Part shown: positions 16,300-51,186 of the stretch, piece after piece
How the letters are laid out: each line of letters opens with the position of its first letter
Position numbering within the stretch: position 1 is the first letter of the stretch
From: Escherichia coli
Lineage (GTDB): Bacteria > Pseudomonadota > Gammaproteobacteria > Enterobacterales > Enterobacteriaceae
Assembly: GCF_024502345.1 (NCBI RefSeq)
Contig: NZ_JALDNN010000001.1
Direction: 5' to 3' (one strand)
Length of the DNA stretch: 64,000 nucleotides
The notes under the pieces: model-generated
Told to the model about the DNA's origin: nothing
The model's input: the letters and a program-made list of their open reading frames with translations, nothing else
Databases searched by the model: none
Program-made: the position numbers and the translations under genes

Positions 16300-16575
16300 G
16301 TGGCTTCTGTTTCTATCAGCTGTCCCTCCTGTTCAGCTACTGACGGGGTGGTGCGTAACGGCAAAAGCACCGCCGGACATCAGCGCTATCTCTGCTCTCA
16401 CTGCCGTAAAACATGGCAACTGCAGTTCACTTACACCGCTTCTCAACCCGGTACGCACCAGAAAATCATTGATATGGCCATGAATGGCGTTGGATGCCGG
16501 GCAACCGCCCGCATTATGGGCGTTGGCCTCAACACGATTTTCCGCCATTTAAAAAACTCAGGCCGCAGTCGGTAA
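16300..16575 (+). CDS. insA: IS1 InsA (transposition inhibitor / N-terminal part of transposase)
   Basis: 91-aa [46 protein letters not shown]... Confidence 0.9.
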
Positions 16576-16997
16576 CCTCGCGCATACAGCCGGGCAGTGA
16601 CGTCATCGTCTGCGCGGAAATGGACGAACAGTGGGGATACGTCGGGGCTAAATCGCGCCAGCGCTGGCTGTTTTACGCGTATGACAGGCTCCGGAAGACG
16701 GTTGTTGCGCACGTATTCGGTGAACGCACTATGGCGACGCTGGGGCGTCTTATGAGCCTGCTGTCACCCTTTGACGTGGTGATATGGATGACGGATGGCT
16801 GGCCGCTGTATGAATCCCGCCTGAAGGGAAAGCTGCACGTAATCAGCAAGCGATATACGCAGCGAATTGAGCGGCATAACCTGAATCTGAGGCAGCACCT
16901 GGCACGGCTGGGACGGAAGTCGCTGTCGTTCTCAAAATCGGTGGAGCTGCATGACAAAGTCATCGGGCATTATCTGAACATAAAACACTATCAATAA
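16494..16997 (+). CDS. insB: IS1 InsB frame (expressed as the InsAB' fusion)
   Basis: 167-aa ORF in the -1 frame relative to insA, inside IS1. Confidence 0.9.
16551..16557 (+). promoter_or_regulatory. IS1 programmed -1 ribosomal frameshift motif (AAAAAAC) generating the InsAB' transposase
   Basis: A6C heptamer at the insA/insB overlap. Confidence 0.75.
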
Positions 16998-17352
16998 GTT
17001 GGAGTCATTACCTTGCGTAAGATAGATGAGACAAACTGAGACGCATAATGGTTTGCAAGGCTCTAATACTTTGATGTTGAGGATGTGATGGGGCATGTAC
17101 GGGGCATAGTACAATGATGTCCATGCTGGTGTAGATAATCTCCAGGCTTATCCGGTGCGCCGTAAAACCCCGTCCTTCAGGGCAGGGATATAAGGCGTGG
17201 TTTTCCACCTAACCAGGTGTTTGCTGTTGTTCAATGTATTGGCGGATGACGGATATTGGCGCACCTCCGCAGCTACTGGCAAAATAGCCAGCACTCCACA
17301 AAACGCCTTTGTAGTAATACCTGACTGCAATATCTGGTCGATCTCGTCGCAG

Positions 17353-17640
17353 TCACCTACCCGATACGCCTTTGAGGCTGTTTACCAGACTGGATATCGC
17401 CAGTTTGGGAGGATAGTTAATTAACAAATGGACGTGATCTGGTTCGCCATCCATTTCAACCAGTTCAGCTTCAAAATCAGCACATACATTTGAAAAGTAA
17501 GTGCGTAGTTTTTCTGTCGCGTCATGGTCAAAAATCTGACGTCGGTATCTGGTGACAAAGACCAGGTGAACATGCATCAGGAAAACACAATGCCTTCCAC
17601 GCCGGATATCGGTTTCTTTTTTCACAGACCAAAGTATCAT
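17353..17640 (-). pseudogene. tnpA: IS200/IS605-family transposase TnpA, C-terminally truncated (HuH motif present, catalytic Tyr region missing)
   Basis: 95-aa ORF with the HuH motif HVHLL; IS200-type TnpA normally continues for about 50 more residues including the catalytic tyrosine. Confidence 0.6.
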
Positions 17641-17647
17641 TTGGCCT

Positions 17648-18856
17648 GTGAAACGACTACAAGCATTTAAATTCCAGTTAAGACCCGGTGGTCAACAGGA
17701 GCGTGAAATGAGGCGCTTCGCAGGCGCATGTCGTTTCGTTTTCAATCGTGCTCTGGCACGTCAGAATGAGAATCATGAGGCCGGTAATAAATACATCCCT
17801 TACGGGAAAATGGCTTCCTGGCTGGTTGAGTGGAAAAATGCCACTGAAACGCAATGGCTTAAAGATGCCCCGTCACAGCCATTGCAACAGTCACTGAAAG
17901 ACCTTGAGCGGGCTTACAAAAACTTCTTCCAGAATCGGGCTGCTTTTCCCCGATTCAAAAAGCGGGGACAGAATGATGTATTCCGCTACCCGCAGGGCGT
18001 TAAGCTCGATCAGGAAAACAGCCGTATTTTTCTGCCGAAACTGGGCTGGATGCGCTACCGGAACAGCCGTCAGGTCACGGGTGTTGTGAAAAATGTCACT
18101 GTCAGCCAGTCCTGCGGTAAGTGGTACATCAGTATTCAGACAGAAAGTGAAGTATCAACTCCGGTTCACCCTTCAGCATCAATGGTCGGGCTGGATGCTG
18201 GCGTGGCTAAACTCGCCACGCTGTCAGATGGCACAGTCTTTGAGCCTGTAAACAGTTTTCAGAAAAACCAGAAGAAGCTGGCGAGACTTCAGCGACAGTT
18301 AAGCCGCAAGGTCAAATTCAGCAACAACTGGCAGAAGCAGAAACGCAAAATACAGCGACTGCATTCCTGTATCGCAAATATCCGCAGGGACTACCTTCAC
18401 AAAGTCACAACGACCGTCAGCAAAAACCACGCAATGATAGTCATTGAGGATTTGAAGGTCAGCAACATGTCAAAGTCAGCAGCGGGTACGGTCAGCCAGC
18501 CGGGGCGCAATGTCCGGGCAAAATCAGGTTTAAACCGTTCGATACTGGATCAGGGCTGGTATGAAATGCGCCGCCAGCTTGAGTACAAGCAGCTCTGGCG
18601 TGGCGGTCAGGTGCTTGCTGTTCCGCCAGCGTACACAAGCCAGCGTTGCGCGTGCTGTGGTCATACAGCGAAAGAAAACCGCCTGTCACAAAGTAAATTC
18701 AGATGCCAGGTATGTGGATATACAGCGAACGCCGATGTAAATGGCGCTCGTAACATTTTAGCGGCGGGGCACGCCGTTCTTGCCTGTGGAGAGATGGTGC
18801 AGTCAGGCCGCCCGTTGAAGCAGGAACCCACCGAAATGATTCAGGCGACAGCCTGA
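17648..18856 (+). CDS. tnpB: IS200/IS605-family TnpB (OrfB): RuvC-like nuclease with C-terminal zinc finger, RNA-guided nuclease family
   Basis: 402-aa ORF; RuvC motifs (GLDAGV..., IVIEDLKV) and CxxC...CxxC zinc finger (CACCGH...CQVCGY); divergent from tnpA. Confidence 0.85.
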
Positions 18857-23361: not shown

Positions 23362-23727
23362 TCAAAAGAGGTTATCCTGCGGAGCCAGCACAAAGCCGCC
23401 CTGATCGCCATAGGCACTTAACACCGATTTTTGCACCGATGACTGACCGACCAGTTTCGCCAGTTCATCCATCCGAATCTGTAATAACTGCTTTACCTTG
23501 CTTTCGTTGTCGAGAATCAGGCGCAGCATCGGGCGGAGCTGCTCCTGCATCGTGGTGGACGGGTCAATCTCTTCAGTCAGATGTGCAATCTCCTGCACCG
23601 CATTCACATACGCCATTTCGCTGGCGATGAGTTTGTCCCATTGTTCTTCCGTTGCCAGGCGTAACATGAGCTGGCTTTTTTCGACGAGTTGTTGCCAGGC
23701 GAAATACAAATGCGGTGCATGGTTCAT
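23362..23727 (-). CDS. fliT: Flagellar chaperone / anti-FlhDC factor FliT
   Basis: 121-aa ORF downstream of fliS. Confidence 0.85.
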
Positions 23728-24137
23728 CAGACTGGGTCCTGAATCAAAGAAGGGGAGAGTAACGACTCTTTCCAGGCATCGGCAATATTGCGCATTAATG
23801 TTTCCACTTCTTCGACTGCGGAGACATCGTTGCGTAAATTGGCTTGCAGCAAACGCCTGACCATATAGCTATAAAGAGCAATCAAGTTTTGGGTTAATTC
23901 GTCTTTGCTCTCTTCATCAAGACTCACCCGCAGTCCGTTCTCAATAATGTTGATCGCTTTTGACAAAGAGACGCCTTTGCCTTGCTGATTGTTGTCCTGC
24001 ATAAACAGGCGCGCTCTAACCAGTGCGCTCAGCACTCCATCAAATAGCATGGTGACCAGCTGCTGCTGGCTGGCGCTCATTACGGCGCTTTCGACGCCAA
24101 TTTGTGCATAGGCCTGGGTGCCTTTTGCCGCGTACAT
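23727..24137 (-). CDS. fliS: Flagellin-specific chaperone FliS
   Basis: 136-aa ORF; operon position. Confidence 0.9.
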
Positions 24138-24161: not shown

Positions 24162-25568
24162 TTACTTGGAATTACTGTTGTTTTCGAACTGCTGCGTTAA
24201 GTAGCTGCTTGTGCTGTTTAACGAGGTCATTAAAACGTCCAGTTGGGTAAATTGTTCTTTGTAGCGCGCGACCTGCGCATCAATGCGATCGCTGGCGGCG
24301 TTGTAGTCTTTAGTTAATTTATTCAGGGTCTTACTAACGCCATCGGTAGCGGCTTTAATAATGCCCGTTGTCGAAAGCCAACTGGTCAGGTTGCTGCCGA
24401 TGGTGGTCGTGATGCCGGTTTTTTTACCATCGCCAACAATCAATGCACCTACGCCGCTGGCATCTTTTTTCAGTGCAGCGGTGAGTTTGTCGGCATCCAG
24501 TTCCAGTTTGCCATCGCTGGGATCGGTCGTGATACCAATCTGCGCCAACGTTTTATAGCTGGAAGAACTGACGGTATTACTCAGCATCGACTTCAACTGC
24601 GTCTGAATCGTCCGCAGCGTGGAGTCGCCGAGCAGTGCGCCATTGCTAGAACTCTGGCTATCAGCTCCCGCATCTACGGCGGTGTATTTGGTCAGGCTGC
24701 TGAAGGTATCTATTAGCGAGTTATAGGCATTCACCCAGTCTTTAATCGCCGTTTGCGCTTTGGAGGTGTCCTGAGTGATGGTTAGCGTCTGGTTGCCCGT
24801 GATGACATCGTTCAGGTTCAGGGTGATGTTTTCCAGCGCGTCGCTGATGGTGTTGCTGCTGTTCTCAATGGCGACGTTGTTGACCGTCAGCTGCGCATTC
24901 TGGGCGGCGACCGAGACTTCCATACCGTTGCTGCTGGCACTGGCGTCATAGCCCATAAAACTTTGTAGCGCATCATCACCGCTGACCGAGAGTGTCATCG
25001 CATTATCAAGGCCGGTGTCATTTGATGTGACTGACAGACGATATTCACCGTTACCCACGTTAATGATGCTCGCACTTACTCCCGCTTTTGCGTTGTTGAT
25101 GGCATCACGGATCCCGCTTAACGACGAGTTAGCCGCGCTGATATCAATGGTAATCGGATCTTTGTCGCCGCCTTGTTGAATGGTGAGTTTACTGTCGCTG
25201 GTGGCGATCGCCGTTTTCGTATCATCTCTGGTGGTGCGCGTGGTCAGGGTTTGCGCCTGCGCCAGATGGGTGACGCTGATGGTGTATTTCCCGGCGATGG
25301 CGTTACCCGCGGTGGTGGCACTGAACGCGGTGGTGCTGCTGGTAGTGCTGGTGGCGGAAAAAAGATCGGCTTTAGACAATGCAGTATTGGCGGTCTGGAA
25401 AGTCGTCAACGCGCTTTTCAGCGTACCGTAGGCGCTAAGTTTAGCGGTAAACGACGATTGCTGATTTGAAATAGGGGTTAGCGTCGCTTTTTGCGCGGCG
25501 GTGAGGCTATCAAGGATTGAACTTAAATCCAGGCCTGACCCGACTCCCAGCGATGAAATACTTGCCAT
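24162..25568 (-). CDS. fliD: Flagellar filament cap protein FliD
   Basis: 468-aa ORF; first gene of fliDST. Confidence 0.9.
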   Translation of the reverse strand: MASISSLGVGSGLDLSSILDSLTAAQKATLTPISNQQSSFTAKLSAYGTLKSALTTFQTANTALSKADLFSATSTTSSTTAFSATTAGNAIAGKYTISVTHLAQAQTLTTRTTRDDTKTAIATSDSKLTIQQGGDKDPITIDISAANSSLSGIRDAINNAKAGVSASIINVGNGEYRLSVTSNDTGLDNAMTLSVSGDDALQSFMGYDASASSNGMEVSVAAQNAQLTVNNVAIENSSNTISDALENITLNLNDVITGNQTLTITQDTSKAQTAIKDWVNAYNSLIDTFSSLTKYTAVDAGADSQSSSNGALLGDSTLRTIQTQLKSMLSNTVSSSSYKTLAQIGITTDPSDGKLELDADKLTAALKKDASGVGALIVGDGKKTGITTTIGSNLTSWLSTTGIIKAATDGVSKTLNKLTKDYNAASDRIDAQVARYKEQFTQLDVLMTSLNSTSSYLTQQFENNSNSK

Positions 25569-25730
25569 GCGATTTCCTTTTATCTTTCGACACGTAAAAC
25601 GAATACCGGGGTTATCGGCCTGAATTGCGCAAAGTTTACGTTTAATTGTTTTTTTTAATAGCGGGAATAAGGGGCAGAGAAAAGAGTATTTCGGCGACTA
25701 ACAAAAAATGGCTGTTTGTGAAAAAAATTC

Positions 25731-25757
25731 TAAAGGTTGTTTTACGACAGACGATAA
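25731..25757 (+). promoter_or_regulatory. Sigma-28 (FliA) class 3 promoter of fliC
   Basis: TAAA-N15-GACGATAA matching the sigma-28 consensus TAAA-N15-GCCGATAA, about 80 bp upstream of the fliC start. Confidence 0.65.
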
Positions 25758-25833: not shown

Positions 25834-27846
25834 ATGGCACAAGTCATTAATACCAACAGCCTCTCGCTGATCACTCAAAATAATATCAACAAGAACCAGT
25901 CTGCGCTGTCGAGTTCTATCGAGCGTCTGTCTTCTGGCTTGCGTATTAACAGCGCGAAGGATGACGCCGCAGGTCAGGCGATTGCTAACCGTTTTACTTC
26001 TAACATTAAAGGCCTGACTCAGGCTGCACGTAACGCCAACGACGGTATTTCTGTTGCGCAGACCACCGAAGGCGCGCTGTCCGAAATCAACAACAACTTA
26101 CAGCGTATTCGTGAACTGACGGTTCAGGCGACGACCGGAACTAACTCCACCTCTGATCTGGACTCCATTCAGGACGAAATCAAATCCCGTCTTGATGAAA
26201 TTGACCGCGTATCCGGCCAAACCCAGTTCAACGGCGTGAACGTACTGTCAAAAGATGGCTCGATGAAAATTCAGGTCGGCGCGAACGATGGCGAAACGAT
26301 TACTATTGATCTGAAGAAAATTGACTCTGATACGCTGAATCTGGCTGGTTTTAACGTTAACGGTAAAGGTTCTGTAGCGAATACAGCTGCGACAAGCGAC
26401 GATTTAAAACTGGCTGGTTTCACTAAGGGCACCACAGATACCAATGGCGTGACCGCGTATACAAACACAATTAGTAATGACAAAGCCAAAGCTTCCGATC
26501 TGTTAGCTAATATCACCGATGGATCAGTGATCACTGGGGGAGGGGCAAACGCTTTTGGCGTGGCTGCAAAGAATGGTTACACCTATGATGCAGCAAGTAA
26601 ATCTTATAGTTTTGCTGCAGATGGTGCCGATTCAGCGAAGACGTTAAGCATCATTAATCCAAACACCGGTGATTCGTCGCAGGCGACAGTGACTATTGGT
26701 GGTAAAGAGCAGAAAGTTAATATTTCCCAGGATGGAAAAATTACTGCGGCAGATGATAATGCGACGCTGTATTTAGATAAACAGGGAAACTTGACAAAAA
26801 CGAATGCAGGTAACGATACCGCAGCGACTTGGGATGGTTTAATTTCCAACAGCGATTCTACCGGTGCGGTTCCAGTTGGGGTTGCAACTACAATTACAAT
26901 TACTTCTGGTACAGCTTCCGGAATGTCTGTTCAGTCCGCAGGAGCAGGAATTCAGACCTCAACAAATTCTCAGATTCTTGCAGGTGGTGCATTTGCGGCT
27001 AAGGTAAGTATTGAGGGAGGCGCTGCTACAGACATTTTGGTAGCAAGTAATGGAAACATAACAGCGGCTAATGGTAATGCACTTTATCTTGATGCGACTA
27101 CTGGTGGATTCACTACAACGGCTGGAGGAAATACAGCTGCTTCGTTAGATAATTTAATTGCTAACAGTAAGGATGCTACCTTAACCGTAACTTCAGGTAC
27201 CGGCCAGAACACTGTTTATAGCACAACAGGAAGTGGCGCTCAGTTCACCAGTTTAGCAAAAGTAGACACTGTCAATGTTACCAACGCACATGTCAGTGCC
27301 GAAGGTATGGCAAATCTGACAAAAAGCAATTTTACCATTGATATGGGCGGTACAGGTACAGTAACTTACACAGTTTCCAATGGGGAGGTGAAAGCTGCTG
27401 CAAATGCTGATGTTTATGTCGAAGATGGTGCACTTTCAGCCAATGCTACAAAAGATGTAACCTACTTTGAACAAAAAAATGGGGCTATTACCAACAGCAC
27501 CGGTGGTACCATCTATGAAACAGCTGATGGTAAGTTAACAACAGAAGCTACTACTGCATCCAGTTCCACCGCCGATCCCCTGAAAGCTCTGGACGAAGCG
27601 ATCAGCTCCATCGACAAATTCCGTTCTTCCCTGGGTGCGGTGCAGAACCGTCTGGATTCCGCAGTCACCAACCTGAATAACACCACTACCAACCTGTCCG
27701 AAGCGCAGTCCCGTATTCAGGACGCCGACTATGCGACCGAAGTGTCCAACATGTCGAAAGCGCAGATCATTCAGCAGGCCGGTAACTCCGTGCTGGCAAA
27801 AGCCAACCAGGTACCGCAGCAGGTTCTGTCTCTGCTGCAGGGTTAA
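25834..27846 (+). CDS. fliC: Flagellin FliC, long-variant (670 aa) with extended central variable domain
   Basis: Conserved N-terminus MAQVINTNSLSLITQNN... and C-terminus ...NQVPQQVLSLLQG; long Thr/Gly/Ala-rich central region. Confidence 0.95.
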   Translation: MAQVINTNSLSLITQNNINKNQSALSSSIERLSSGLRINSAKDDAAGQAIANRFTSNIKGLTQAARNANDGISVAQTTEGALSEINNNLQRIRELTVQATTGTNSTSDLDSIQDEIKSRLDEIDRVSGQTQFNGVNVLSKDGSMKIQVGANDGETITIDLKKIDSDTLNLAGFNVNGKGSVANTAATSDDLKLAGFTKGTTDTNGVTAYTNTISNDKAKASDLLANITDGSVITGGGANAFGVAAKNGYTYDAASKSYSFAADGADSAKTLSIINPNTGDSSQATVTIGGKEQKVNISQDGKITAADDNATLYLDKQGNLTKTNAGNDTAATWDGLISNSDSTGAVPVGVATTITITSGTASGMSVQSAGAGIQTSTNSQILAGGAFAAKVSIEGGAATDILVASNGNITAANGNALYLDATTGGFTTTAGGNTAASLDNLIANSKDATLTVTSGTGQNTVYSTTGSGAQFTSLAKVDTVNVTNAHVSAEGMANLTKSNFTIDMGGTGTVTYTVSNGEVKAAANADVYVEDGALSANATKDVTYFEQKNGAITNSTGGTIYETADGKLTTEATTASSSTADPLKALDEAISSIDKFRSSLGAVQNRLDSAVTNLNNTTTNLSEAQSRIQDADYATEVSNMSKAQIIQQAGNSVLAKANQVPQQVLSLLQG

Positions 27847-27882
27847 TCGTCCTAACCTGATTAACTGAGACTGACGGCAACG

Positions 27883-27988
<106 letters not shown>

Positions 27989-28021
27989 AACATAAAGCGC
28001 AATTTGTCAGCAACGTGCTTC

Positions 28022-28046
28022 CCCGCCACCGGCGGGGTTTTTTCTG
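28022..28046 (+). terminator. Rho-independent terminator downstream of fliC
   Basis: GC hairpin CCCCGCCACCGGCGGGG followed by a T-run. Confidence 0.7.
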
Positions 28047-28165
28047 CATGGAATTTACCGGTAACCCCCAAATAACCCCTCATTTCACCCACTAATCGTC
28101 CGATTAAAAACCCTGCAGAAACGGATAATCATGCCGATAACTCATATAACGCAGGGCTGTTTATC

Positions 28166-28885
28166 GTGAATTCACTCTATACCGCTGAAGGTGTAATGGA
28201 TAAACACTCGCTGTGGCAGCGTTATGTCCCGCTGGTGCGTCACGAAGCATTGCGCCTGCAGGTTCGACTGCCCGCGAGCGTGGAACTTGACGATCTGCTA
28301 CAGGCGGGCGGCATTGGGTTACTTAATGCCGTCGAACGCTATGACGCCCTACAAGGAACGGCATTTACAACTTACGCAGTGCAGCGTATCCGTGGCGCTA
28401 TGCTGGATGAACTTCGCAGCCGTGACTGGGTGCCGCGCAGCGTGCGTCGCAACGCGCGTGAAGTGGCACAGGCAATAGGGCAACTGGAGCAGGAACTTGG
28501 CCGCAACGCCACGGAAACTGAGGTAGCGGAACGTTTAGGGATCGATATTGCCGATTATCGCCAAATGTTGCTCGACACCAATAACAGCCAGCTCTTCTCC
28601 TACGATGAGTGGCGCGAAGAGCACGGCGATAGCATCGAACTGGTTACTGATGATCATCAGCGAGAAAACCCGCTACAACAACTGCTGGACAGTAATCTGC
28701 GCCAGCGGGTGATGGAAGCCATCGAAACGTTGCCGGAGCGCGAAAAACTGGTATTAACCCTCTATTACCAGGAAGAGCTGAATCTCAAAGAGATTGGTGC
28801 AGTGCTGGAGGTCGGGGAATCGCGGGTCAGTCAGTTACACAGCCAGGCCATTAAACGGTTACGCACTAAACTGGGTAAGTTATAA
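28166..28885 (+). CDS. fliA: Flagellar sigma factor sigma-28 FliA
   Basis: 239-aa sigma-70-family protein, MNSLYTAEGVMDKHSLWQRY... Confidence 0.95.
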   Translation: MNSLYTAEGVMDKHSLWQRYVPLVRHEALRLQVRLPASVELDDLLQAGGIGLLNAVERYDALQGTAFTTYAVQRIRGAMLDELRSRDWVPRSVRRNAREVAQAIGQLEQELGRNATETEVAERLGIDIADYRQMLLDTNNSQLFSYDEWREEHGDSIELVTDDHQRENPLQQLLDSNLRQRVMEAIETLPEREKLVLTLYYQEELNLKEIGAVLEVGESRVSQLHSQAIKRLRTKLGKL

Positions 28886-28930: not shown

Positions 28931-29482
28931 ATGATGGTGCAGCACCTGAAAAGACGGCCATTAAGCCGCTATCTTAAAGACTTTAAACACAGCCAGACCC
29001 ATTGCGCGCATTGCCGTAAATTACTCGACCGCATTACCCTCGTTCGCGACGGCAAAATAGTGAATAAAATCGAGATTTCCCGCCTGGACACGCTGCTTGA
29101 TGAAAATGGCTGGCAAGTGGAACAACAATCATGGGCGGCATTGTGCCGATTTTGCGGTGATTTACACTGCAAAACGCAGAGTGATTTTTTCGATATTATC
29201 GGCTTTAAGCAATTTCTTTTTGAGCAAACTGAAATGAGCCCAGGTACGGTGCGTGAATATGTCGTTCGTCTGCGCCGTTTGGGGAATCATCTACACGAGC
29301 AAAATATTTCCCTCGATCAGCTGCAGGACGGTTTCCTTGATGAAATCCTCGCCCCGTGGCTGCCCACCACCAGCACCAACAATTACCGCATCGCATTACG
29401 GAAGTATCAACACTATCAGCGTCAAACGTGTACCGGACTTGTGCAGAAATCCTCCAGCCTGCCTGCTTCTGATATATATTAA
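28931..29482 (+). CDS. fliZ: Regulator FliZ; start taken at MMVQHLKRRPL
   Basis: Immediately downstream of fliA; ORF track begins 12 codons earlier. Confidence 0.85.
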   Translation: MMVQHLKRRPLSRYLKDFKHSQTHCAHCRKLLDRITLVRDGKIVNKIEISRLDTLLDENGWQVEQQSWAALCRFCGDLHCKTQSDFFDIIGFKQFLFEQTEMSPGTVREYVVRLRRLGNHLHEQNISLDQLQDGFLDEILAPWLPTTSTNNYRIALRKYQHYQRQTCTGLVQKSSSLPASDIY

Positions 29483-34471: not shown

Positions 34472-35528
34472 GGCTTTGTTGAATAAATCAGATTTCGGGT
34501 AAGTCTCCCCCGTAGCGGGTTGTGTTTTCAGGCAATACGCACGCTTTCAGGCATACCTGCTTTCGTCATTTTGTTCAGCGCTCGTACCAGGGCCATAGCC
34601 TCTGCAACCTGACCATCGTAGTCACGCAGTGTCAGTGAACCCCCGAACAGCTGTTTTACCCGGTACATCGCCGTTTCCGCTATCGAGCGACGGTTGTAAT
34701 CTGTTGTCCATTTCCACCGCGCATTACTCCCGGTCATTCGCTGATTAGCCACTGCACGGTTACGGTCTGCATATTCACCGGGCCAGTAACCCGCACCTTT
34801 TCGGGGAGGGATAAGCGCGCTGATTTTCTTACGCCGCAGTTCATCGTGACATAGCCGGGTATCGTAAGCGCCATCGGCGGCGGCTGACCTGATTTTCCGG
34901 TGGGTTTGCCGGATTAACCCGGGGAAGGCCTCTGAGTCCGTAACGTTGTTCAGCGACAGGTCAGCGCAGATGATTTCATGTGTTTTACTGTCAACGGCGA
35001 GATGCAGCTTACGCCAGATACGGCGGCGTTCCTGGCCATGCTTTTTGACTTTCCACTCGCCTTCACCGAAGACCTTCAGCCCGGTGGAATCAATTACCAG
35101 GTGTGCGATTTCACCCCGGGTGGGCGTTTTGAAACTGACATTAACCGACTTTGCCCGCCTGCTGACACAGCTGTAATCCGGGCAGCGTAGCGGAACGTTC
35201 ATCAGAGAAAAAATGGAATCAATAAAGCCCTGCGCAGCGCGCAGGGTCAGCCTGAATACGCGTTTAATGACCAGCACAGTCGTGATGGCAAGGTCAGAAT
35301 AGCGCTGAGGTCTGCCTCGTGAAGAAGGTGTTGCTGACTCATACCAGGCCTGAATAGCTTCATCATCCAGCCAGAAAGTTATGGAGCCACGGTTGATGAG
35401 GGCTTTATTGTAGGTGGGCCAGTTGGTGATTTTGAACTTTTGCTTTGCCACGGAACGGTCTGCGTTGTCGGGAAGATACGTGATCTGATCCTTCAACTCA
35501 GCAAAAGTTCGATTTATTCAACAAAGCC
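34472..35528 (-). mobile_element. IS903-type (IS5 family) insertion sequence, complete 1057 bp, flanked by 9-bp target-site duplication AATCGAATT
   Basis: Terminal inverted repeats GGCTTTGTTGAATAAATC at both ends; identical 9-mers at 34463-34471 and 35529-35537. Confidence 0.9.
34528..35496 (-). CDS. IS903-type DDE transposase
   Basis: ORF MKDQITYLPDNADRSVAKQKFKITNWPTYNKALINRGS... inside the IS. Confidence 0.9.
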   Translation of the reverse strand: MKDQITYLPDNADRSVAKQKFKITNWPTYNKALINRGSITFWLDDEAIQAWYESATPSSRGRPQRYSDLAITTVLVIKRVFRLTLRAAQGFIDSIFSLMNVPLRCPDYSCVSRRAKSVNVSFKTPTRGEIAHLVIDSTGLKVFGEGEWKVKKHGQERRRIWRKLHLAVDSKTHEIICADLSLNNVTDSEAFPGLIRQTHRKIRSAAADGAYDTRLCHDELRRKKISALIPPRKGAGYWPGEYADRNRAVANQRMTGSNARWKWTTDYNRRSIAETAMYRVKQLFGGSLTLRDYDGQVAEAMALVRALNKMTKAGMPESVRIA

Positions 35529-40236: not shown

Positions 40237-41484
40237 ATGATATCAATCAGATACATGAGGATAAATATGCAAAAATCCTTCCGATTCACCAATTCATCCA
40301 TCAAAGCCCTTCCGGCAAACACAGATACCCGATCTACAGAGCTTGAGGTATCAGATACCGAGGTCATAGGCCTCAAATGTCTCTCAGGTCGAACGGGTAA
40401 CAAACGTTTCCTCCTGCGCTACACATTCCACGGTACCAAAAAAAGTATCAGTATTGGCAGATTCCCTGAAATCGATGTGGGGACAGCCCGTCAGATAGCT
40501 CGCCGTCATAAGGAGGCGATTGCACTTGGAAATGACCCCAAGGCAGAGCGCGATAATTATCGTGCGATGCCAACGCTTAGTGAGTTTTTTCACCTGACCT
40601 ATGTTCCGTTCATCAAGCGCCATAAAAAGTCCTGGGATAAGGATGTTCAGCGTTTCACGCAATACATTGAACCTCGTCTGGGGAAGATACGTTACTGCGA
40701 TCTCAGGGCCAGAGAGATACAACAGGTGCTGTTTGACATGCTGGAGGGGCGTATTCACGGGCAGCAATATGCGCCGTCTACCTGTAACAGAGCCCTTGCT
40801 ATTCTGAAAACGATGGGGCGTTATGCGTTGCGACAGGATGTGCTGGAAAAGAATGAAGCCGATAAGATCCCTTTACTGAAAGAGAATAATCAGCGGACGC
40901 GCTTTTTTGATGCTGATGAGATCAGGCGCATTCTTGACGCTGCTACCCAATATCCCAACAAAGCTGCCGGGGGATTGATAGCCATGTTGTTGTTAACCGG
41001 TACACGCAAATCAGAAATGCTTAATGTCAGGCATGAACATATCGACCGGGCCAATCGTACTCTGTTCATTCCTTATACAAAAAATGGTCGCAGTCGGACG
41101 GTATATCTAAGCGATGCAGCATTATCGATTATTGATGCTATCCCACGAGTTGGCAGTAATCCGTATCTGTTCGCCATTAAGGATAATGGAAAACCGATAT
41201 CGGAACCCCGATGGGCATATGAAAAAATACTGGCACAGTGCGGTATAGACAAGAATGAAGTCTGTTTTCACACCACACGTCATTCTGTTGCCTCTTTACT
41301 GGTTTCGAGTGGTCAATTCAGCCTGTATGACGTTAAAGCACAACTGGCGCATGCCAGTATTCAAAGTACGGAGCGCTACGCGAAATTGACACCAGAGCGT
41401 ATGCGTCAGACCGGGCAGGGCGTAACTGACCTTCTTTTGAACACCGTTACTGCCGGTAACAATGATGATTTTAGCACCCCTTGA
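40237..41484 (+). CDS. int: P4-type tyrosine recombinase / integrase (probable start MQKSFRFTNSSIKALP at about 40267)
   Basis: C-terminal catalytic region with HTTRHSVASLL and LAHASIQSTERYAKL; immediately next to a tRNA gene. Confidence 0.85.
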   Translation: MISIRYMRINMQKSFRFTNSSIKALPANTDTRSTELEVSDTEVIGLKCLSGRTGNKRFLLRYTFHGTKKSISIGRFPEIDVGTARQIARRHKEAIALGNDPKAERDNYRAMPTLSEFFHLTYVPFIKRHKKSWDKDVQRFTQYIEPRLGKIRYCDLRAREIQQVLFDMLEGRIHGQQYAPSTCNRALAILKTMGRYALRQDVLEKNEADKIPLLKENNQRTRFFDADEIRRILDAATQYPNKAAGGLIAMLLLTGTRKSEMLNVRHEHIDRANRTLFIPYTKNGRSRTVYLSDAALSIIDAIPRVGSNPYLFAIKDNGKPISEPRWAYEKILAQCGIDKNEVCFHTTRHSVASLLVSSGQFSLYDVKAQLAHASIQSTERYAKLTPERMRQTGQGVTDLLLNTVTAGNNDDFSTP

Positions 41485-44772: not shown

Positions 44773-45675
44773 TTACGGGGCGTTACTTGGCTGGGTGTAA
44801 CGTTTCAGTGCGGATTGTATATCTTCAGCAAGTTGTTGACGGATTGAGGCCGGTTGTATTACTTCGACATCCGGTATCCAGTATTTCATTAAAGGCATTA
44901 TCTGATCTGTGTGTGTTACACGTGATATCACCAGTAAATCGCCAGACCGGGAAGTATGAATTATTTCCTGTCCTGGCAATAGATGACGGTGGGTAAACCA
45001 CGGAGCAACATGTGCGGAAACTGAAATAAGAACTTCGATAAGGTCTTCGCTATACCAGATACCATCTGTCTTTTCTATTTTTTCATTAATTTCGGGGATT
45101 ATCCTGAAAGAGATATTACTCATGCAAACGTCTTTGACAGATGAGATAACAAAGCTTTTTAATGTACTGTCATGGGCGGCAGCGAGATACCACAATCCGT
45201 TGTCATTAACCAGCCTGTATGGCTCAACAGCCCGAAACTCTTTATCTTTGTAATTAAAATTTACTTTCTTCTGTGACAGGATGGCATCGGATAATACATT
45301 CAGAATTGACATGAATGATCCGCAGTTTTCGTATGGACGTTGTTTTATCAGAAACGGGTTGTTTTTCGTGTTACCTAACAAAATACTCAGTAGTCTGTCA
45401 TCCCAGCGAGGGAACAGCCCTTCAATACCCAGGATGCGCGTGAAATGACGTAAATCAGCATTGCTGCGTTGACCGAGAACACCGTCAGACAGGCGATAGC
45501 GACCATTTTGTCGAATCAGATTAAGATAGGACAGGCGCTGAGTAAGATCACGACGGATAGTTTTTTCGCAAACGTTAAATTCCTCAGATAACTCCCGGAC
45601 GGCTAGTGACTCACCATTGTTCAGGCGAGTTAATATCAATCCGAGTCGATATCCAAGTTTATCGTGCTTACCCAT
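44773..45675 (-). CDS. HTH + WYL-domain transcriptional regulator (BrxR/CapW-like, defence-island regulator family)
   Basis: 300-aa ORF; N-terminal DeoR-like HTH ([22 protein letters not shown]), central WYL-type segment ([10 protein letters not shown]). Confidence 0.65.
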
Positions 45676-46429: not shown

Positions 46430-49093
46430 TCAGACTGGAAGACAGAATGTCGGATATTTACGGGCTATGATATCCATCAGTGACTTCATTCGCGGTGTTA
46501 CAGAACTAAATTTCATTTGGGGTATTTTTGCTCTTACCGCATTTTTTACATCAGTCACCGTTACTGAATAGCCTTCTGACGTCAGCCATTCAGCAACCTC
46601 TTTACAGGAATAACTTTTTTTATCTTTCAGCATCAGCCCCCATTGGCACTGAGTCAGCGCCCGGAGAAATAGTCTGACTAAAATATCATCACTACGTTTG
46701 CTTCCGACTTTTAGTTTCATATCAGAAAACACCGTCCGGCAATAGAGAAAATCACACCAGTCATCCCAGTCAGCCAGGGTCTTCAGTGTATGCGTTTGCC
46801 GCCAGTCGTCGAAAAGGGAGCGCTGCTGCAGAGCCTCTTCCATATTATCCCATGGGCGGGAAAACATCAGTAAATGCCCTTCATTCATGGCGGGCTGTAC
46901 GGGCTGGCGTTTGAAATCGAATTCCAGATTAAGACGGATATCCTGTTCCCGGGATACCAGATCGCTTTCCGACAGCCACATCTCACGCGTTGATATCAAC
47001 GTACTTCGGGATAAAGTCTGACCGGGTAAACGATTAAGGTAAAGATCTACCATATAGTCGTTATAGTCACTGCGTGGAATATCGGCAGGAGGTTTGACGC
47101 CAGCCCTGGCATGAACAACAGGTTTTCCCTGAATAGCTCTATAGGTTAACTGCCCCCGGGTTTTCATGGCGATAAGCTGGCTGACTTCATGCTTACATGT
47201 CAACATTGATGAACCCGGATCAACAATATCGCACAGCGACTGGAAGCGGGAAGACAGTGGACCGCTCATGTTTATCTTGTTAAGTGGGCAATTTGTCAAA
47301 AAGCCATCGGTTGTGACGCTGACAACCGATGAATCAGAAGGCAAAGCATTCATGAGTTCCCCGGCAACGGCGCGGATAAATCCCGTTACATGCGCAGCAA
47401 AGAATGGCTGAGTAACCGATGATGGTGGGAGGGATCTGTTTAATCCACGGGCAGTATCAAAGGCGGTTTTGGCGCGAAGGCCCTGAGCAAGTTTGCCATA
47501 AAGCGAGTTGCCAATTTCTTTCCAGAATTTCTCCTCCAGAGAACCTTTAATATGGCGATTACGGTTCTCACGGACCTGTTGAACAAAGGGAAGAAACACC
47601 GATGTTGATTCGCTGTTATGTGGGGAGGTGTCACAGATCCAGGGGACGATGATCCCATTATGGATCGTCATCTCTGCCCCGAGCGACAGAGCAAGTTCGA
47701 TTTCAGGTGCCGTTGCCCATGATTCGCCACTTAATGGAAAGAATAACCCATATTGATCGGTCCGAACCGGCAGGCTGGGATAGGGAACTGATTCCGGGAA
47801 CCGAAATGTGACAAGCGCAAATCCCATTACATGCCCACAGTAATCGTCCGGATTTTTACTGAGGCGGATGTTCCCGTAATCGGGTGTGAGGATATCTAAT
47901 AGCCCGGTGGTATACGCTCCAGCCAGATCGTAGTCATACCAGTGATCAGACGGTGTAACCCCCATCATAAAACACTCATTGCGTCCGCCGTGGTAACAGT
48001 TGATCGGGAACGTTTCAAACAACTCTCTTGAAGGAACACTGGCGGGGTTTTTAATCGTCCGGAATGCCTGTTTCTCCGTGAGCCAGAGTTCACGGGTTTT
48101 AATGTGTGTCCCAAGGCAGACTTCAGGAGACATATTGTTTTCTTTAAGTGTTTTGGTGAACCGTGAAACTGCCATCGCCCCGATGGTGGCGGGGACACGA
48201 TCAATCATCAGCTCCCGGGCGCAAAAATTGCGAACCTGTAAAGCATAACGAACCGCAATCTCGGCATCCCGCAGAGCATAGGCTTCAAACCCTGCTCTGT
48301 CGCCCAGAAGATATTCACGCATATTGGTTATGGAATAAGGTGCAGGAATGGTGAGTTTGGGAAGACCCAGTAATTCACCACATTCAGCCAGACCCATACC
48401 CCCGGGAGTGATAAGCAGTGTATCGATGAAAGCTACGTTACTGCAACGCGGAGGGGAAGTTCGTTTGTCAAACATTATCTGTTCAGTCTTTACGCGACGT
48501 TCCTGCTGTTCATCAAAATCGATACCGTAACGATTTTTGAAGCTGCTGACAGTACCGCGTATTCCTTTCAGAAGAATTTTGTAGTCTGACCAGAAATTGG
48601 CAAAGGAGGCGATATCCGCACGAATGAAATGCGCATATATATTAATAATACCGGGCCATTTTGTAATCACACCCGTTTCAAGAAGCGGTGTAATCGTTTG
48701 ACAGAGAAATTCCTTAAAAGACAGCCGGGATTTTTTCTGTGAGTCAGGTGGATAGATAATGTTCGATATACCTGTATTATCGGGTAAGATAACATAACTC
48801 TGATATGACAGAATATCATTCTGTCGTGTTTCAGGGTTGAAAACATATTCGGTATCAAAACCGATATGGAGTGTCAGGTCACTTGAAATAACAGATACTT
48901 TTTTTGATGCAGGTGGTATCACAGGATAATCATCAAGCGTTTTAGGTCTTTTACGATTGAGCGCTGGCTCTGAAGTCACGGACTGATACCCCGAGGCGGC
49001 AGCGAGGATGTCCTGCAAATTATTGCTCATAGTTAACTCCGAAAAAATGCCGGGAGCTGTGTCCCGGCATAAAGAATCAGGATTTAATAACAT
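46430..49093 (-). CDS. Family B DNA polymerase of the primer-independent (piPolB) type, pipolin hallmark gene
   Basis: 887-aa ORF; Exo I FDTE; motif B KEIGNSLYGK; motif C-like VTTDGF; KTRG in place of the canonical KxY motif (IAMKTRGQLTY). Confidence 0.8.
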   Translation of the reverse strand: MLLNPDSLCRDTAPGIFSELTMSNNLQDILAAASGYQSVTSEPALNRKRPKTLDDYPVIPPASKKVSVISSDLTLHIGFDTEYVFNPETRQNDILSYQSYVILPDNTGISNIIYPPDSQKKSRLSFKEFLCQTITPLLETGVITKWPGIINIYAHFIRADIASFANFWSDYKILLKGIRGTVSSFKNRYGIDFDEQQERRVKTEQIMFDKRTSPPRCSNVAFIDTLLITPGGMGLAECGELLGLPKLTIPAPYSITNMREYLLGDRAGFEAYALRDAEIAVRYALQVRNFCARELMIDRVPATIGAMAVSRFTKTLKENNMSPEVCLGTHIKTRELWLTEKQAFRTIKNPASVPSRELFETFPINCYHGGRNECFMMGVTPSDHWYDYDLAGAYTTGLLDILTPDYGNIRLSKNPDDYCGHVMGFALVTFRFPESVPYPSLPVRTDQYGLFFPLSGESWATAPEIELALSLGAEMTIHNGIIVPWICDTSPHNSESTSVFLPFVQQVRENRNRHIKGSLEEKFWKEIGNSLYGKLAQGLRAKTAFDTARGLNRSLPPSSVTQPFFAAHVTGFIRAVAGELMNALPSDSSVVSVTTDGFLTNCPLNKINMSGPLSSRFQSLCDIVDPGSSMLTCKHEVSQLIAMKTRGQLTYRAIQGKPVVHARAGVKPPADIPRSDYNDYMVDLYLNRLPGQTLSRSTLISTREMWLSESDLVSREQDIRLNLEFDFKRQPVQPAMNEGHLLMFSRPWDNMEEALQQRSLFDDWRQTHTLKTLADWDDWCDFLYCRTVFSDMKLKVGSKRSDDILVRLFLRALTQCQWGLMLKDKKSYSCKEVAEWLTSEGYSVTVTDVKNAVRAKIPQMKFSSVTPRMKSLMDIIARKYPTFCLPV

Positions 49094-49715
49094 TTACTAC
49101 AGATTTGAAAATATCGGTTTTGTGTGATTCATCATCTACATGGATAAAGGAAACGAGTTTCCTGCCTGCTTTAATCAGGATACCGCGTTGCGTCTTTTCC
49201 ACAGACGGGGTAACGTGTGCAGATAACAGACAATGTTCATGTAAATGAAGAAACTTTTTTGAGGCGTAGCCGCCATGTAATCGGGCTTGAATGTCAAGAT
49301 ACATATCATCAAGAGAACCGGGTTCTCCTGATTCACTCAATACCGGATAACCCTTCTTATCAAAGAGGTTAAGGATAGATTTACTATCATGTTCGAACAG
49401 GGTAACACCGTAAATGTATTTCATTCGAAAGGTGAGGGAATCGGTGGTGTAGACCTCCTCCTGACGATTGAAATTTTTGAGACGCCTGGCTAATTCATTA
49501 AAAACAGCACGAGCAGTAGCCGTGTCCTGCAGGGTGTAGGTATAAAGTACGAAGCCATCTGTGCCGATGAGCTTTACTAAGTTGTCCATAATCGTGATAG
49601 CGAGAACTAATGCAAAGGACAGATATTTTTCATCGTTGTCTACAGCTGTGTTTGCTGCTTCAGGAAGAATGTTCAGTGCATTATTAGCATTATTTGCTGT
49701 GTTCTTAGTAACCAT
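49077..49715 (-). CDS. Hypothetical protein, overlapping and probably translationally coupled to piPolB
   Basis: 212-aa ORF; stop overlaps the piPolB start; start overlaps the alpA-like stop. Confidence 0.5.
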   Translation of the reverse strand: MVTKNTANNANNALNILPEAANTAVDNDEKYLSFALVLAITIMDNLVKLIGTDGFVLYTYTLQDTATARAVFNELARRLKNFNRQEEVYTTDSLTFRMKYIYGVTLFEHDSKSILNLFDKKGYPVLSESGEPGSLDDMYLDIQARLHGGYASKKFLHLHEHCLLSAHVTPSVEKTQRGILIKAGRKLVSFIHVDDESHKTDIFKSVVNVIKS

Positions 49716-50055: not shown

Positions 50056-51186
50056 TCATTTTTTCGTGTCATAACTTTCTATGACCTGAGAAACCACTGC
50101 GTGCGATGTCGCTGCATTGTGAAAAGCGTAGCGACGGGTCGCCGTGAGTGAATGGTGATTTAGCAGATGGGAAGCGATTGCAATATCCCCGGTCGCCTGT
50201 AGTACCCGGGTGGCAAAGGTACGGCGCAGGTCATGCATCCGCAGGTTATCAATGTTGGCATCCCGACAAATACGGGCAAAGGTTGCACGCGGATATGCCA
50301 GAGGGCGGGCATTGTCGGTTAGTTGTGGAAAAATGTAAGTTTTGCTGAGCATCAGGTCTTGCTGGCACTGGACAACTGCAATGGCTGGAGGTGCAAGTGG
50401 GCAGGTGAAAGGGTGTCCGGACTTTGTATCAGGCAGTATGAGTTGATGCATATCCGGGTGCCAGTACTCCCATTTCAGGGTACATACCTCACCAATACGC
50501 ATCCCCGTATAAAGAGCAAGCAATATAGAATCAGCTGCCGGTGTTTGCAGCGCTGTTGCCGCGTCAATAAAGCGCGGGATTTCTGTCGCTGATAGTGTGC
50601 GATAGCGAATGTTATTTTCTTTCAGATAGCGGACATGTGACATCGGGGAATGTGTGATCCATCCAGCACGTACTGCCAGAGAGCATATTTTGGACAATAT
50701 TGCGAGGATACGGTTTACTGTTGACGGACGTAATTTTTCCCGTAAGCCAGCAGCATATTGTTCTAGTTCCCCTGCCGTGATGTCGCGAAGTTGCCGCTTG
50801 CCCCAGAACGGGCGAACGTAGAGGTTGAGTTTTGACAACTCTGACTGAGGACTCTTTTTATACAACTGCAAATCCGGTAGCCACAGGTCATTGATGGCCT
50901 GTTCCACAGTGAATCGACGGGACTGAACCGCAAGACGATTTTTATCAGCAAGCAGTTTCATCACATGCTGACGGGCATCCTCAACGCAGAGCTGAGGGAA
51001 CTGACCCAGGGTTTCATATATACGCTGATTGTTTATAGTGGCACGAAAGGCCAGCGTGATCCGATTGGGATACACCAGAGCACGCAGGTTTTGGCAGTGA
51101 ATATCACGGTATTCCTGACAACCCGTGAGGGGATGTGGAAGTTGGTGAAGTGATTTGTTGCTGAAACGCAGATCCAGAATAGGCAT
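50056..51186 (-). CDS. Second tyrosine recombinase (XerC/D-like integrase)
   Basis: C-terminal catalytic motifs HDLRRTFATR, LLNHH, TATRRYAF. Confidence 0.8.
   Translation of the reverse strand: MPILDLRFSNKSLHQLPHPLTGCQEYRDIHCQNLRALVYPNRITLAFRATINNQRIYETLGQFPQLCVEDARQHVMKLLADKNRLAVQSRRFTVEQAINDLWLPDLQLYKKSPQSELSKLNLYVRPFWGKRQLRDITAGELEQYAAGLREKLRPSTVNRILAILSKICSLAVRAGWITHSPMSHVRYLKENNIRYRTLSATEIPRFIDAATALQTPAADSILLALYTGMRIGEVCTLKWEYWHPDMHQLILPDTKSGHPFTCPLAPPAIAVVQCQQDLMLSKTYIFPQLTDNARPLAYPRATFARICRDANIDNLRMHDLRRTFATRVLQATGDIAIASHLLNHHSLTATRRYAFHNAATSHAVVSQVIESYDTKK

What the first reader, a model, noticed from the sequence alone, without database searches (positions are those of the whole stretch)
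25834..27846. Long-form flagellin (670 aa) with an extended variable domain
The conserved N- and C-terminal segments bracket an unusually long Thr/Gly/Ala/Asn-rich central region, indicating an H-antigen type different from the commonly recalled K-12 flagellin of roughly 500 aa. This is useful for serotype assignment and as a marker of recombination at fliC.
Basis: partly seen in the sequence, partly recalled or inferred. Interest (0 to 1): 0.25.

Follow-up and report, generated by a model that had tools for sequence, protein, structure and literature searches.

The report
Known E. coli H9 flagellin gene
This is the ordinary, intact flagellin gene (fliC) of an E. coli strain carrying the well-known H9 flagellar antigen; it is long because one surface domain was duplicated long ago.

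Summary
Window 25834-27846 (+) is an intact 670-aa ORF with flagellin N- and C-terminal domains and a Thr/Ala/Gly/Ser/Asn-rich centre. It sits in the canonical fliD | fliC-fliA locus, with a sigma-28 promoter and a terminator.

It is the E. coli H9 fliC allele. The variable core is at least 99% identical in 411 of 5,426 complete E. coli genomes, including strains labelled O21:H9 and O111:H9. A public draft assembly is 100% identical over 8 kb. The gene itself is therefore not new.

Two things were added here:
- **Why it is long.** H9 aligns with the solved EPEC H6 flagellin (548 aa, outer domains D2-D4) except for about 110-120 extra residues. These correspond to a second, diverged copy (aa 384-484) of the module at aa 279-383, which carries the D4 dimer-interface motif (36% identity, z = 10.8). 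Modelled alone, the second copy matches only sheath-forming flagellins in the PDB.
- **How old the form is.** Kluyvera, Enterobacter, Leclercia and Cedecea carry the same two-copy form. Synonymous sites are near saturation, so the form is old rather than recently transferred.

SNP patterns show mosaic conserved ends and a recombination junction at the 3' end of fliC. The finding is ordinary and of low interest.

The parts
25612..25638 (-). Sigma-28-type promoter of the divergent fliD-fliS-fliT operon. On the minus strand it reads TAAACTTT-N11-GCCGATAA.
   Evidence: Read directly from the sequence. Consensus match only.
25731..25757 (+). Sigma-28 (FliA) class-3 promoter of fliC: TAAAGGTT-N11-GACGATAA, 77 nt upstream of the ATG.
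   Evidence: Pattern found. It matches the E. coli sigma-28 consensus TAAAGTTT-N11-GCCGATAA (established knowledge). Not tested functionally.
25834..27846 (+). fliC coding sequence, H9 allele: 670 aa plus a TAA stop.
25834..26358 (+). N-terminal conserved D0/D1 helices (aa 1-175), including the TLR5-recognised QRIRELTV starting at aa 90 (aa 90-97).
   Evidence: Pfam Flagellin_N; motif position; PMC9373361. GC3 is 0.55.
26359..27573 (+). Hypervariable outer-domain region (aa 176-580), serotype-specific. GC is 0.446 and GC3 is 0.33.
   Evidence: AF2 pLDDT is 85-95 across aa 180-570.
26668..26982 (+). Repeat unit 1 (aa 279-383). It is homologous to H6 residues 276-373 and carries the conserved D4 dimer-interface motif LYLDKQGNLTKTNAG. 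N319 aligns with H7 N319.
   Evidence: G318, N319 and L320 are invariant in 35 flagellins.
26983..27285 (+). Repeat unit 2 (aa 384-484). A diverged tandem copy of unit 1 that is absent from H6 and is the more variable of the two.
   Evidence: Smith-Waterman alignment gives 36% identity over 104 columns, z = 10.8. The secondary-structure pattern matches unit 1. Modelled alone it reaches pLDDT 86. Foldseek matches only sheath-type flagellins, TMq 0.58-0.61.
27574..27843 (+). C-terminal conserved D1/D0 helices (aa 581-670).
   Evidence: Pfam Flagellin_C. GC3 is 0.70.
28021..28043 (+). Rho-independent terminator-like hairpin CCCCGCCACCGGCGGGG followed by a T-run, downstream of two REP-like palindromes (about 27890-28000).
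   Evidence: Consensus match only.
24162..25568 (-). fliD (filament cap, 468 aa). fliS lies at 23727-24137 and fliT at 23362-23727 further along the same strand. All are full length.
   Evidence: same lengths as annotated in L001-L004.
28166..28885 (+). fliA (sigma-28, 239 aa), followed by fliZ at 28931-29482. Both are intact.

Best explanation
The ORF is fliC, the structural gene for the flagellar filament subunit, in its H9 antigenic form, at the normal chromosomal fliC locus of an E. coli strain. FliA (sigma-28) transcribes it from a class-3 promoter. The conserved terminal helices (D0/D1) build the filament core and carry the TLR5 epitope. The central 405 residues fold into beta-rich outer domains on the filament surface and determine H9 specificity. 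The protein follows the plan of the EPEC H6 / EHEC H7 sheath-forming flagellins (outer domains D2-D4). It also has one extra domain that arose by an ancient tandem duplication of the roughly 100-aa module carrying the D4 dimer-interface motif. Unit 1 (aa 279-383) keeps that motif and is strongly conserved. Unit 2 (aa 384-484) has lost the motif and varies more. By inference, unit 2 is an additional exposed, serotype-defining surface domain. Shown here: gene identity, locus, H9 allele class, the duplication, the fold class, and the mosaic SNP pattern. Inferred: expression, sheath formation, and the surface role of unit 2.
For: Identity and locus:
- Pfam and NCBIfam flagellin hits are above their cut-offs.
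- The neighbours are fliT-fliS-fliD on one side and fliA-fliZ-tcyJ-dcyD on the other, as in the annotated E. coli records.
- Sigma-28 promoter and terminator motifs are present.

H9 assignment:
- The full gene is 99.6% identical to strains labelled O21:H9 and to E110019. E110019 is listed as O111:H9 in PMC2782363.
- The variable core is >=99% identical in 411 of 5,426 genomes.
- The exact protein is on record, and draft assembly GCA_050022275.1 is 100% identical over 8,013 bp.

Architecture:
- phmmer aligns H9 aa 1-377 with H6 (7SQJ; 7SN7 is equivalent) aa 1-373, and H9 aa 487-670 with H6 aa 369-548. This leaves roughly 110-120 extra residues in H9.
- Unit 1 against unit 2: 36% identity, z = 10.8. 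Unit 1 against H6: 47% identity, z = 22.6.
- The strand/helix order is repeated in the AF2 model, which has pLDDT 85-95 in the outer region.
- Unit 2 modelled alone has pLDDT 86 and pTM 0.73. Its only significant PDB matches are the Azotobacter and EHEC H7 filament flagellins.
- The best matches of the full model are H7, H6, Azotobacter and Achromobacter, and three of these (H7, H6, Achromobacter) are described as sheath formers (PMC8931119).

Conservation asymmetry:
- Between genera, unit 1 is 87-90% identical at the amino-acid level and unit 2 is 79-81%.
- Among 10 H9 alleles, unit 1 has 1 variable site and unit 2 has 5.
Against: - No direct comparison with the H9 type-strain reference sequence or an H-typing database was possible. 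The H9 label rests on strain names and one paper's strain table, and that paper's text also calls E110019 'O111:H2'.
- Expression and motility cannot be judged, because flhDC is outside the window.
- Foldseek output gives no residue ranges. The assignment of the units to 'D4' rests on alignment of the sequence motif with H7 N319/N323.
- The second Asn of that motif is Thr in H9, so sheath-type dimerisation is not assured.
- The AF2 inter-domain arrangement is unreliable (TM 0.25 to the solved filaments).
Confidence: 0.9

Rival explanations
1. The extra ~100 residues are a foreign insertion into an H6-like flagellin, not an internal duplication.
For: The boundary after unit 1 is an insertion hotspot. 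Citrobacter portucalensis (P0064) and Atlantibacter (P0039) flagellins carry an unrelated Tyr/Ala-rich segment at the same place. No DNA-level repeat with a ~315-nt spacing exists in the gene.
Against: - Unit 2 aligns with unit 1 at 36% identity, z = 10.8 against shuffles.
- It aligns consistently with unit-1 modules of 24 other flagellins.
- It repeats unit 1's secondary-structure order.
- Its only PDB fold matches are flagellin outer domains.
- A profile of the module finds only 50 clusters among 1.84 billion representatives; the five longer (689-824 aa) hits that were checked are flagellins.
Confidence: 0.07
2. The gene is a cryptic or silent flagellin in a non-motile strain, as in Shigella or non-motile E. 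coli, so it is a typing marker only.
For: The window shows no evidence of expression. flhDC, whose loss silences flagella in Shigella (PMC7018530), is not in the window. Several IS elements lie nearby. A review reports that an ETEC O8:H9 strain carrying this allele type did not express flagella on HeLa cells (PMC4009794).
Against: - fliC, fliD, fliS, fliT, fliA and fliZ are all full length.
- ORFs of the expected sizes for fliF-fliR are present upstream.
- Promoter and terminator motifs are intact.
- The flanks are >=98% identical to E. coli chromosomes.
Confidence: 0.12
3. E. coli acquired the H9 variable region recently by horizontal transfer from Kluyvera, Enterobacter or Leclercia.
For: The same two-unit variable region occurs at 83-84% amino-acid identity in those genera. 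In Enterobacter hormaechei it sits outside the fliC locus, next to a recombinase and an IS605 OrfB. GC3 of the variable region is 0.33, against 0.55 and 0.70 in the conserved ends.
Against: Third-codon-position identity between the E. coli and Kluyvera variable regions is only 0.47. That is lower than in the flanking fliD (0.66), fliA (0.59), dcyD (0.55) and fliS (0.54). The split is therefore at least as old as the genus divergence. In Kluyvera the gene is at the syntenic fliD | fliC-fliA locus.
Confidence: 0.05

Closest known systems
E. coli H9 flagellin (fliC-H9), as in O111:H9 strain E110019 and in genomes whose strain names carry ST167 or 410
   Same: Same gene, same locus and same length (2,013 bp / 670 aa). 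Identity is 99.6% over the whole gene and >=99% over the variable core. An identical protein and identical DNA are already public.
   Different: Only allele-level differences. This allele has N413, N415 and E518, where L003, L004 and P0127 have D413, S415 and D518.
EPEC O127:H6 flagellin (PDB 7SN7 / 7SQJ), a sheath-forming flagellin with outer domains D2-D4
   Same: The D0/D1 regions are near-identical. H9 aa 176-340 and 487-580 align with the H6 outer domains, including the D4 dimer-interface motif (H6 LYMDATGNLTKNNAG, H9 LYLDKQGNLTKTNAG) (PMC8931119).
   Different: H6 is 548 aa and has one copy of the module. H9 has about 110-120 extra residues that form a second, diverged copy. The second motif Asn is Thr in H9.
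EHEC O157:H7 flagellin (PDB 7SN4)
   Same: It is the best Foldseek match to the full model (E 5e-33) and a significant match to unit 2 alone (TMq 0.58-0.59, rmsd 2.4-2.8 Å). H7 N319, which is needed for sheath formation and motility, aligns with H9 N319.
   Different: 585 aa, with low sequence similarity across most of the variable region and no tandem second module.
G. thiophilus flagellin, in which outer domain D5 is a duplication of D4 (PMC11532411)
   Same: A precedent for enlarging a flagellin by duplicating an existing outer domain.
   Different: A different fold and lineage. There the copy is inserted into a loop of the parent domain. Here the copies are in tandem.
E. coli K-12 flagellin (H48; taken to be PDB 8cxm, 498 aa)
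   Same: Same family and conserved ends; phmmer E 1e-137.
   Different: Only aa 1-230 and the C-terminal end align. The outer domains are of a different type and 172 aa shorter. That 8cxm is the K-12 filament is from my own knowledge; the tool output labels it only 'Flagellin'.

Membership tests
FliC/FljB flagellin family | N-terminal flagellin helical domain (PF00669) | tested here: met
   aa 5-140, E 4e-46, 157 bits against a cut-off of 26.6.
FliC/FljB flagellin family | C-terminal flagellin helical domain (PF00700) | tested here: met
   aa 583-668, E 6e-32, 110 bits against a cut-off of 23.
FliC/FljB flagellin family | Score above the curated NCBIfam cut-off for enterobacterial FliC/FljB | tested here: met
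   NF005953 scores 763 bits against a cut-off of 619.
FliC/FljB flagellin family | Location at the fliC locus, divergent from fliDST and upstream of fliAZ | tested here: met
   ORF map. The order is identical to the annotated records L001-L004.
FliC/FljB flagellin family | Polymerises into a flagellar filament | not testable with these tools
   Needs microscopy or a motility assay.
E. coli H9 antigen type | Variable region near-identical to fliC of strains typed H9 | tested here: met
   >=99% identity in 411 genomes, including a strain named O21:H9 and E110019 = O111:H9 (PMC2782363 Table 1).
E. coli H9 antigen type | Match to the H9 type-strain reference in an H-typing database (EcOH / SerotypeFinder) | not tested
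   No such database is available here, and Wang et al. 2003 is not held.
E. coli H9 antigen type | Agglutination with H9 antiserum | not testable with these tools
   Serology is required.
Outer-domain-sheath (ODS) flagellins (H6, H7, Achromobacter type) | Outer domains homologous to D2-D4 of the solved ODS flagellins | tested here: met
   phmmer alignment to 7SN7, 7SQJ and 7SN4 runs through the outer region. The Foldseek top hits are these filaments.
Outer-domain-sheath (ODS) flagellins (H6, H7, Achromobacter type) | Conserved D4 dimer-interface motif with the two Asn residues (H7 N319, N323) | tested here: inconclusive
   N319 is conserved and invariant in 35 relatives. The second position is Thr323 in H9. 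Achromobacter has Glu there and still forms a sheath. Unit 2 lacks both Asn residues.
Outer-domain-sheath (ODS) flagellins (H6, H7, Achromobacter type) | Outer domains form symmetric dimers or a sheath on the filament | not testable with these tools
   Needs cryo-EM of H9 filaments.

The most novel reading that the evidence does not exclude
H9-type flagellins may form a distinct four-outer-domain subclass of sheath-forming flagellins. In this reading, an ancient tandem copy of the D4 dimerisation module was released from the dimer-interface constraint and became the main fast-evolving, serotype-defining surface. The allele lineage would have been maintained across Escherichia, Kluyvera, Enterobacter, Leclercia and Cedecea since before those genera split (trans-species polymorphism), rather than spread by recent transfer.
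Probability: 0.4. Interest if true: 0.35.

Novelty: already known. Interest (0 to 1): 0.15.

Why it matters
In practice the result assigns the strain's flagellar antigen as H9, a common type found in 7.6% of complete E. coli genomes. Hit strain names include ST167 and 410, which I read (from my own knowledge) as the high-risk ST167 and ST410 lineages. It also confirms that fliC is a recombination mosaic in this genome. The domain analysis gives a simple structural reason for the length of H9, namely a duplicated D4-like module. It identifies H9 as a natural test case for how extra outer domains change the flagellar sheath, motility in viscous media and antigenicity. None of this overturns current understanding.

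Tried and rejected
- **Self-BLASTP.** A self-BLASTP of the protein reported only the diagonal. The internal repeat needed split Smith-Waterman alignments with shuffle controls.
- **DNA-level repeat search.** It found no repeat at the unit spacing. A recent duplication or an assembly artefact is therefore rejected.
- **Wang et al. 2003.** This paper on species-wide fliC variation is not held. The PCR-RFLP paper gave no gene lengths. I therefore make no claim that H9 is the longest E. coli FliC.
- **Full-model Foldseek.** TM-scores were low (about 0.25) because AF2 inter-domain orientations differ from those in the filament. A single-module model was used instead.
- **Hin/hix-type switch.** I looked for inverted repeats around the recombinase next to the Enterobacter H9-like flagellin and found nothing convincing. 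The recombinase more likely belongs to the adjacent phage-tail remnant.
- **Novel H type.** Rejected.
- **Shigella origin.** The nearby IS elements raised this possibility. Nothing supports it: the exact DNA occurs in E. coli assemblies.

Full report
**Observation.** The ORF listing reports a single ORF at 25834..27846 on the + strand, ATG to TAA, 670 aa. Pfam finds Flagellin_N (aa 5-140), the enterobacterial FliC domain PF12445 (aa 441-574) and Flagellin_C (aa 583-668). NCBIfam NF005953 'FliC/FljB family flagellin' scores 763 bits against a cut-off of 619. The central region is rich in Thr, Ala, Gly, Ser and Asn.

**Context.** To the left, on the minus strand, lie fliD (468 aa), fliS (136 aa), fliT (121 aa) and amyA. 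To the right lie fliA (239 aa), fliZ, tcyJ and dcyD. This is the same order as in four annotated E. coli chromosomes.

- The intergenic region carries sigma-28-type promoters in both directions. The fliC promoter is TAAAGGTT-N11-GACGATAA at 25731-25757. The fliD promoter is TAAACTTT-N11-GCCGATAA on the minus strand at 25612-25638.
- Two REP-like palindromes and a strong hairpin with a T-run at 28021-28043 follow the stop codon.
- All flagellar genes in view are full length, so nothing in the window suggests a pseudogene. The master regulator flhDC is outside the window, so expression cannot be judged.

**Which flagellin.**

- The whole gene is 99.6% identical to many complete E. coli chromosomes. 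These include a strain named 'O21:H9' and E110019, which PMC2782363 lists as O111:H9 in its strain table. The text of that paper once says O111:H2.
- The variable core alone (26400-27500) hits 411 of 5,426 genomes, every one at >=99% identity, and nothing else. This is the pattern expected of one H-antigen-specific hypervariable form (PMC7018530).
- Hit strain names include ST167 and 410.
- The exact protein is already in public collections. Draft assembly GCA_050022275.1 is 100% identical over 8,013 bp around the gene.
- This is the known fliC-H9 allele. A comparison with the formal H9 reference in a typing database could not be run here.

**Why it is long.**

- A sequence search of the PDB shows that H9 residues 1-377 align with residues 1-373 of the EPEC O127:H6 flagellin (7SQJ; 7SN7 is equivalent, 548 aa). 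H9 residues 487-670 align with H6 residues 369-548. H9 therefore has roughly 110-120 residues that H6 lacks.
- Split Smith-Waterman alignments show that aa 279-381 and aa 384-477 are homologous. Identity is 36% over 104 columns, and the score of 133 compares with 47 ± 8 for composition-preserving shuffles (z = 10.8). Unit 1 is 47% identical to H6 residues 276-373 (z = 22.6).
- An AlphaFold2 model built on 35 relatives has pLDDT 85-95 across aa 180-570. It repeats the same strand/helix order in the two units.
- Unit 2 modelled alone has pLDDT 86 and pTM 0.73. Its only significant PDB matches are a domain of the Azotobacter vinelandii flagellin and of the EHEC H7 flagellin (TMq 0.58-0.61, rmsd 2.4-3.3 Å).
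- The full model's best matches are the H7, H6, Azotobacter and Achromobacter filaments.
- According to PMC8931119, the H7, H6 and Achromobacter flagellins have three outer domains (D2-D4) that dimerise into an outer-domain sheath. A conserved D4 motif containing H7 N319 and N323 is needed for the sheath and for normal soft-agar motility.
- In the phmmer alignment H7 N319 aligns with H9 N319 inside LYLDKQGNLTKTNAG (unit 1). G318, N319 and L320 are invariant in all 35 aligned flagellins. The second Asn is Thr in H9.
- Unit 2 has LYLDATTGGFTTTAGG at the same place and lacks both Asn residues.
- No DNA-level repeat remains, so the duplication is ancient.
- Domain duplication as a way to enlarge flagellins has a published precedent (G. 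thiophilus D5 from D4; PMC11532411). A profile of the module finds other flagellins of 749-824 aa with several copies.

**Conservation asymmetry.**

- In the 17 two-unit flagellins, unit 1 is almost invariant while unit 2 diverges.
- Against Kluyvera and Enterobacter, unit 1 is 87-90% identical at the amino-acid level and unit 2 is 79-81%.
- Among ten H9 alleles, unit 1 has one variable site and unit 2 has five. These include 413, 415, 425 and 431 in the loop that corresponds to the lost dimer motif.
- The sample is small. The pattern fits a constrained structural copy next to a freer, exposed copy, but this is inference.

**Relatives and age.**

- The same two-unit variable region occurs at 83-84% amino-acid identity in Kluyvera georgiana, K. 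sichuanensis, Enterobacter hormaechei and Leclercia adecarboxylata (671-672 aa). It occurs at 52-68% identity in 676-693-aa flagellins, including that of Cedecea colo.
- In Kluyvera the gene is at the syntenic fliD | fliC-fliA locus.
- Third-codon-position identity between E. coli and Kluyvera is 0.47 in the variable region. It is 0.54-0.66 in fliS, dcyD, fliA and fliD, and 0.78-0.81 in the conserved ends of fliC.
- The H9 form is therefore at least as old as the split between the genera. Recent transfer is not supported.
- GC3 of the variable region is 0.33, against 0.55 and 0.70 in the two ends.

**Recombination.**

- Against the H9 allele in L003, 18 of 31 differences lie in nt 138-417 and 10 lie in nt 1767-1971. 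Only 3 lie in the variable region (nt 526-1740).
- Against L001 and L002, the 6 kb to the left of fliC differ at 7 and 13 sites. The 6 kb to the right differ at 64 and 66 sites, with the change occurring at the 3' end of fliC.

**Verdict.** The finding is real and correctly interpreted, and it concerns a well-known gene. The useful additions are the H9 assignment, the explanation of the length by an ancient tandem duplication of the D4-like module, and the evidence that this hypervariable form is old and shared across genera. Novelty: already known. Interest: low.

Noticed in passing
window 39118-64000: tRNA-Leu(taa) is followed by an integrase (40237-41484) and a roughly 25-kb island. The island holds a WYL/HTH regulator (44773-45675, -), a DUF726-like protein, and an 887-aa plus 212-aa ORF pair (46430-49715, -) with no Pfam or PADLOC hit. 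It also holds a second integrase (50056-51186, -) and 376-aa and 411-aa ORFs without hits. A type I R-M system (hsdM 54506-56029, hsdS, hsdR-sized 57996-61283) has a PDC-S12 gene embedded at 57263-57946. A HEC-06/DUF262-like gene lies at 62061-63932. This looks like a defence island with several uncharacterised genes.
   Followed up: partly
window 16494-18856 and 34528-35496: Mobile elements flank the flagellar region. An IS1 transposase fragment and an IS200/IS605 TnpB gene lie between the fliE side and yedK. An IS5 copy lies between sdiA and uvrY.
   Followed up: no
window 27334-28333 (3' end of fliC and downstream spacer): There is a sharp change in divergence relative to the H9 strains L001 and L002. 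The 6 kb to the left differ by about 0.1-0.2% and the 6 kb to the right by about 1.1%. This indicates a recombination junction at the 3' end of fliC.
   Followed up: partly
L005 2418-7367 (Enterobacter hormaechei GCA_047305595.1): An H9-like flagellin (P0016, 85% identical in the variable region) lies outside the fliC locus. The order is phage-tail fragment, a 182-aa resolvase/invertase, a 140-aa ORF, the flagellin, IS605 OrfB, then lepA-lepB. It may be a mobile second-flagellin island. No convincing invertible-segment repeats were found.
   Followed up: partly
P0064 (Citrobacter portucalensis, 685 aa) and P0039 (Atlantibacter hermannii, 638 aa): Where H9 has its second module, these flagellins carry an unrelated Tyr/Ala-rich periodic segment (for example AYSAAYKTAYDDVYKTAYNDAYATKYNADYKTTYDAEY). 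The boundary after the D4-like module therefore appears to be an insertion hotspot.
   Followed up: no
P0151 (2128 aa) and P0174 (1878 aa): The hairpin sub-motif of the module (profile positions ~18-65) recurs 12-13 times in two very large proteins. Both have a C-terminal TrbI-like domain and no flagellin termini. Their function is unknown.
   Followed up: partly
window 26359-27573: GC3 of the fliC variable region is 0.33, against 0.55 (5' end) and 0.70 (3' end) of the same gene. The codon-usage discontinuity coincides with the conserved/variable boundaries.
   Followed up: partly
protein cluster of window:25834-27843: The 90%-identity cluster holding this flagellin has an IS200/IS605 TnpB fragment as its representative and many TnpB fragments as members. 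This is probably a clustering artefact caused by chimeric or fused gene calls.
   Followed up: no
PMC2782363: The paper gives strain E110019 as O111:H9 in Table 1 but as O111:H2 in the Methods text. Its genome carries the H9-type fliC.
   Followed up: yes
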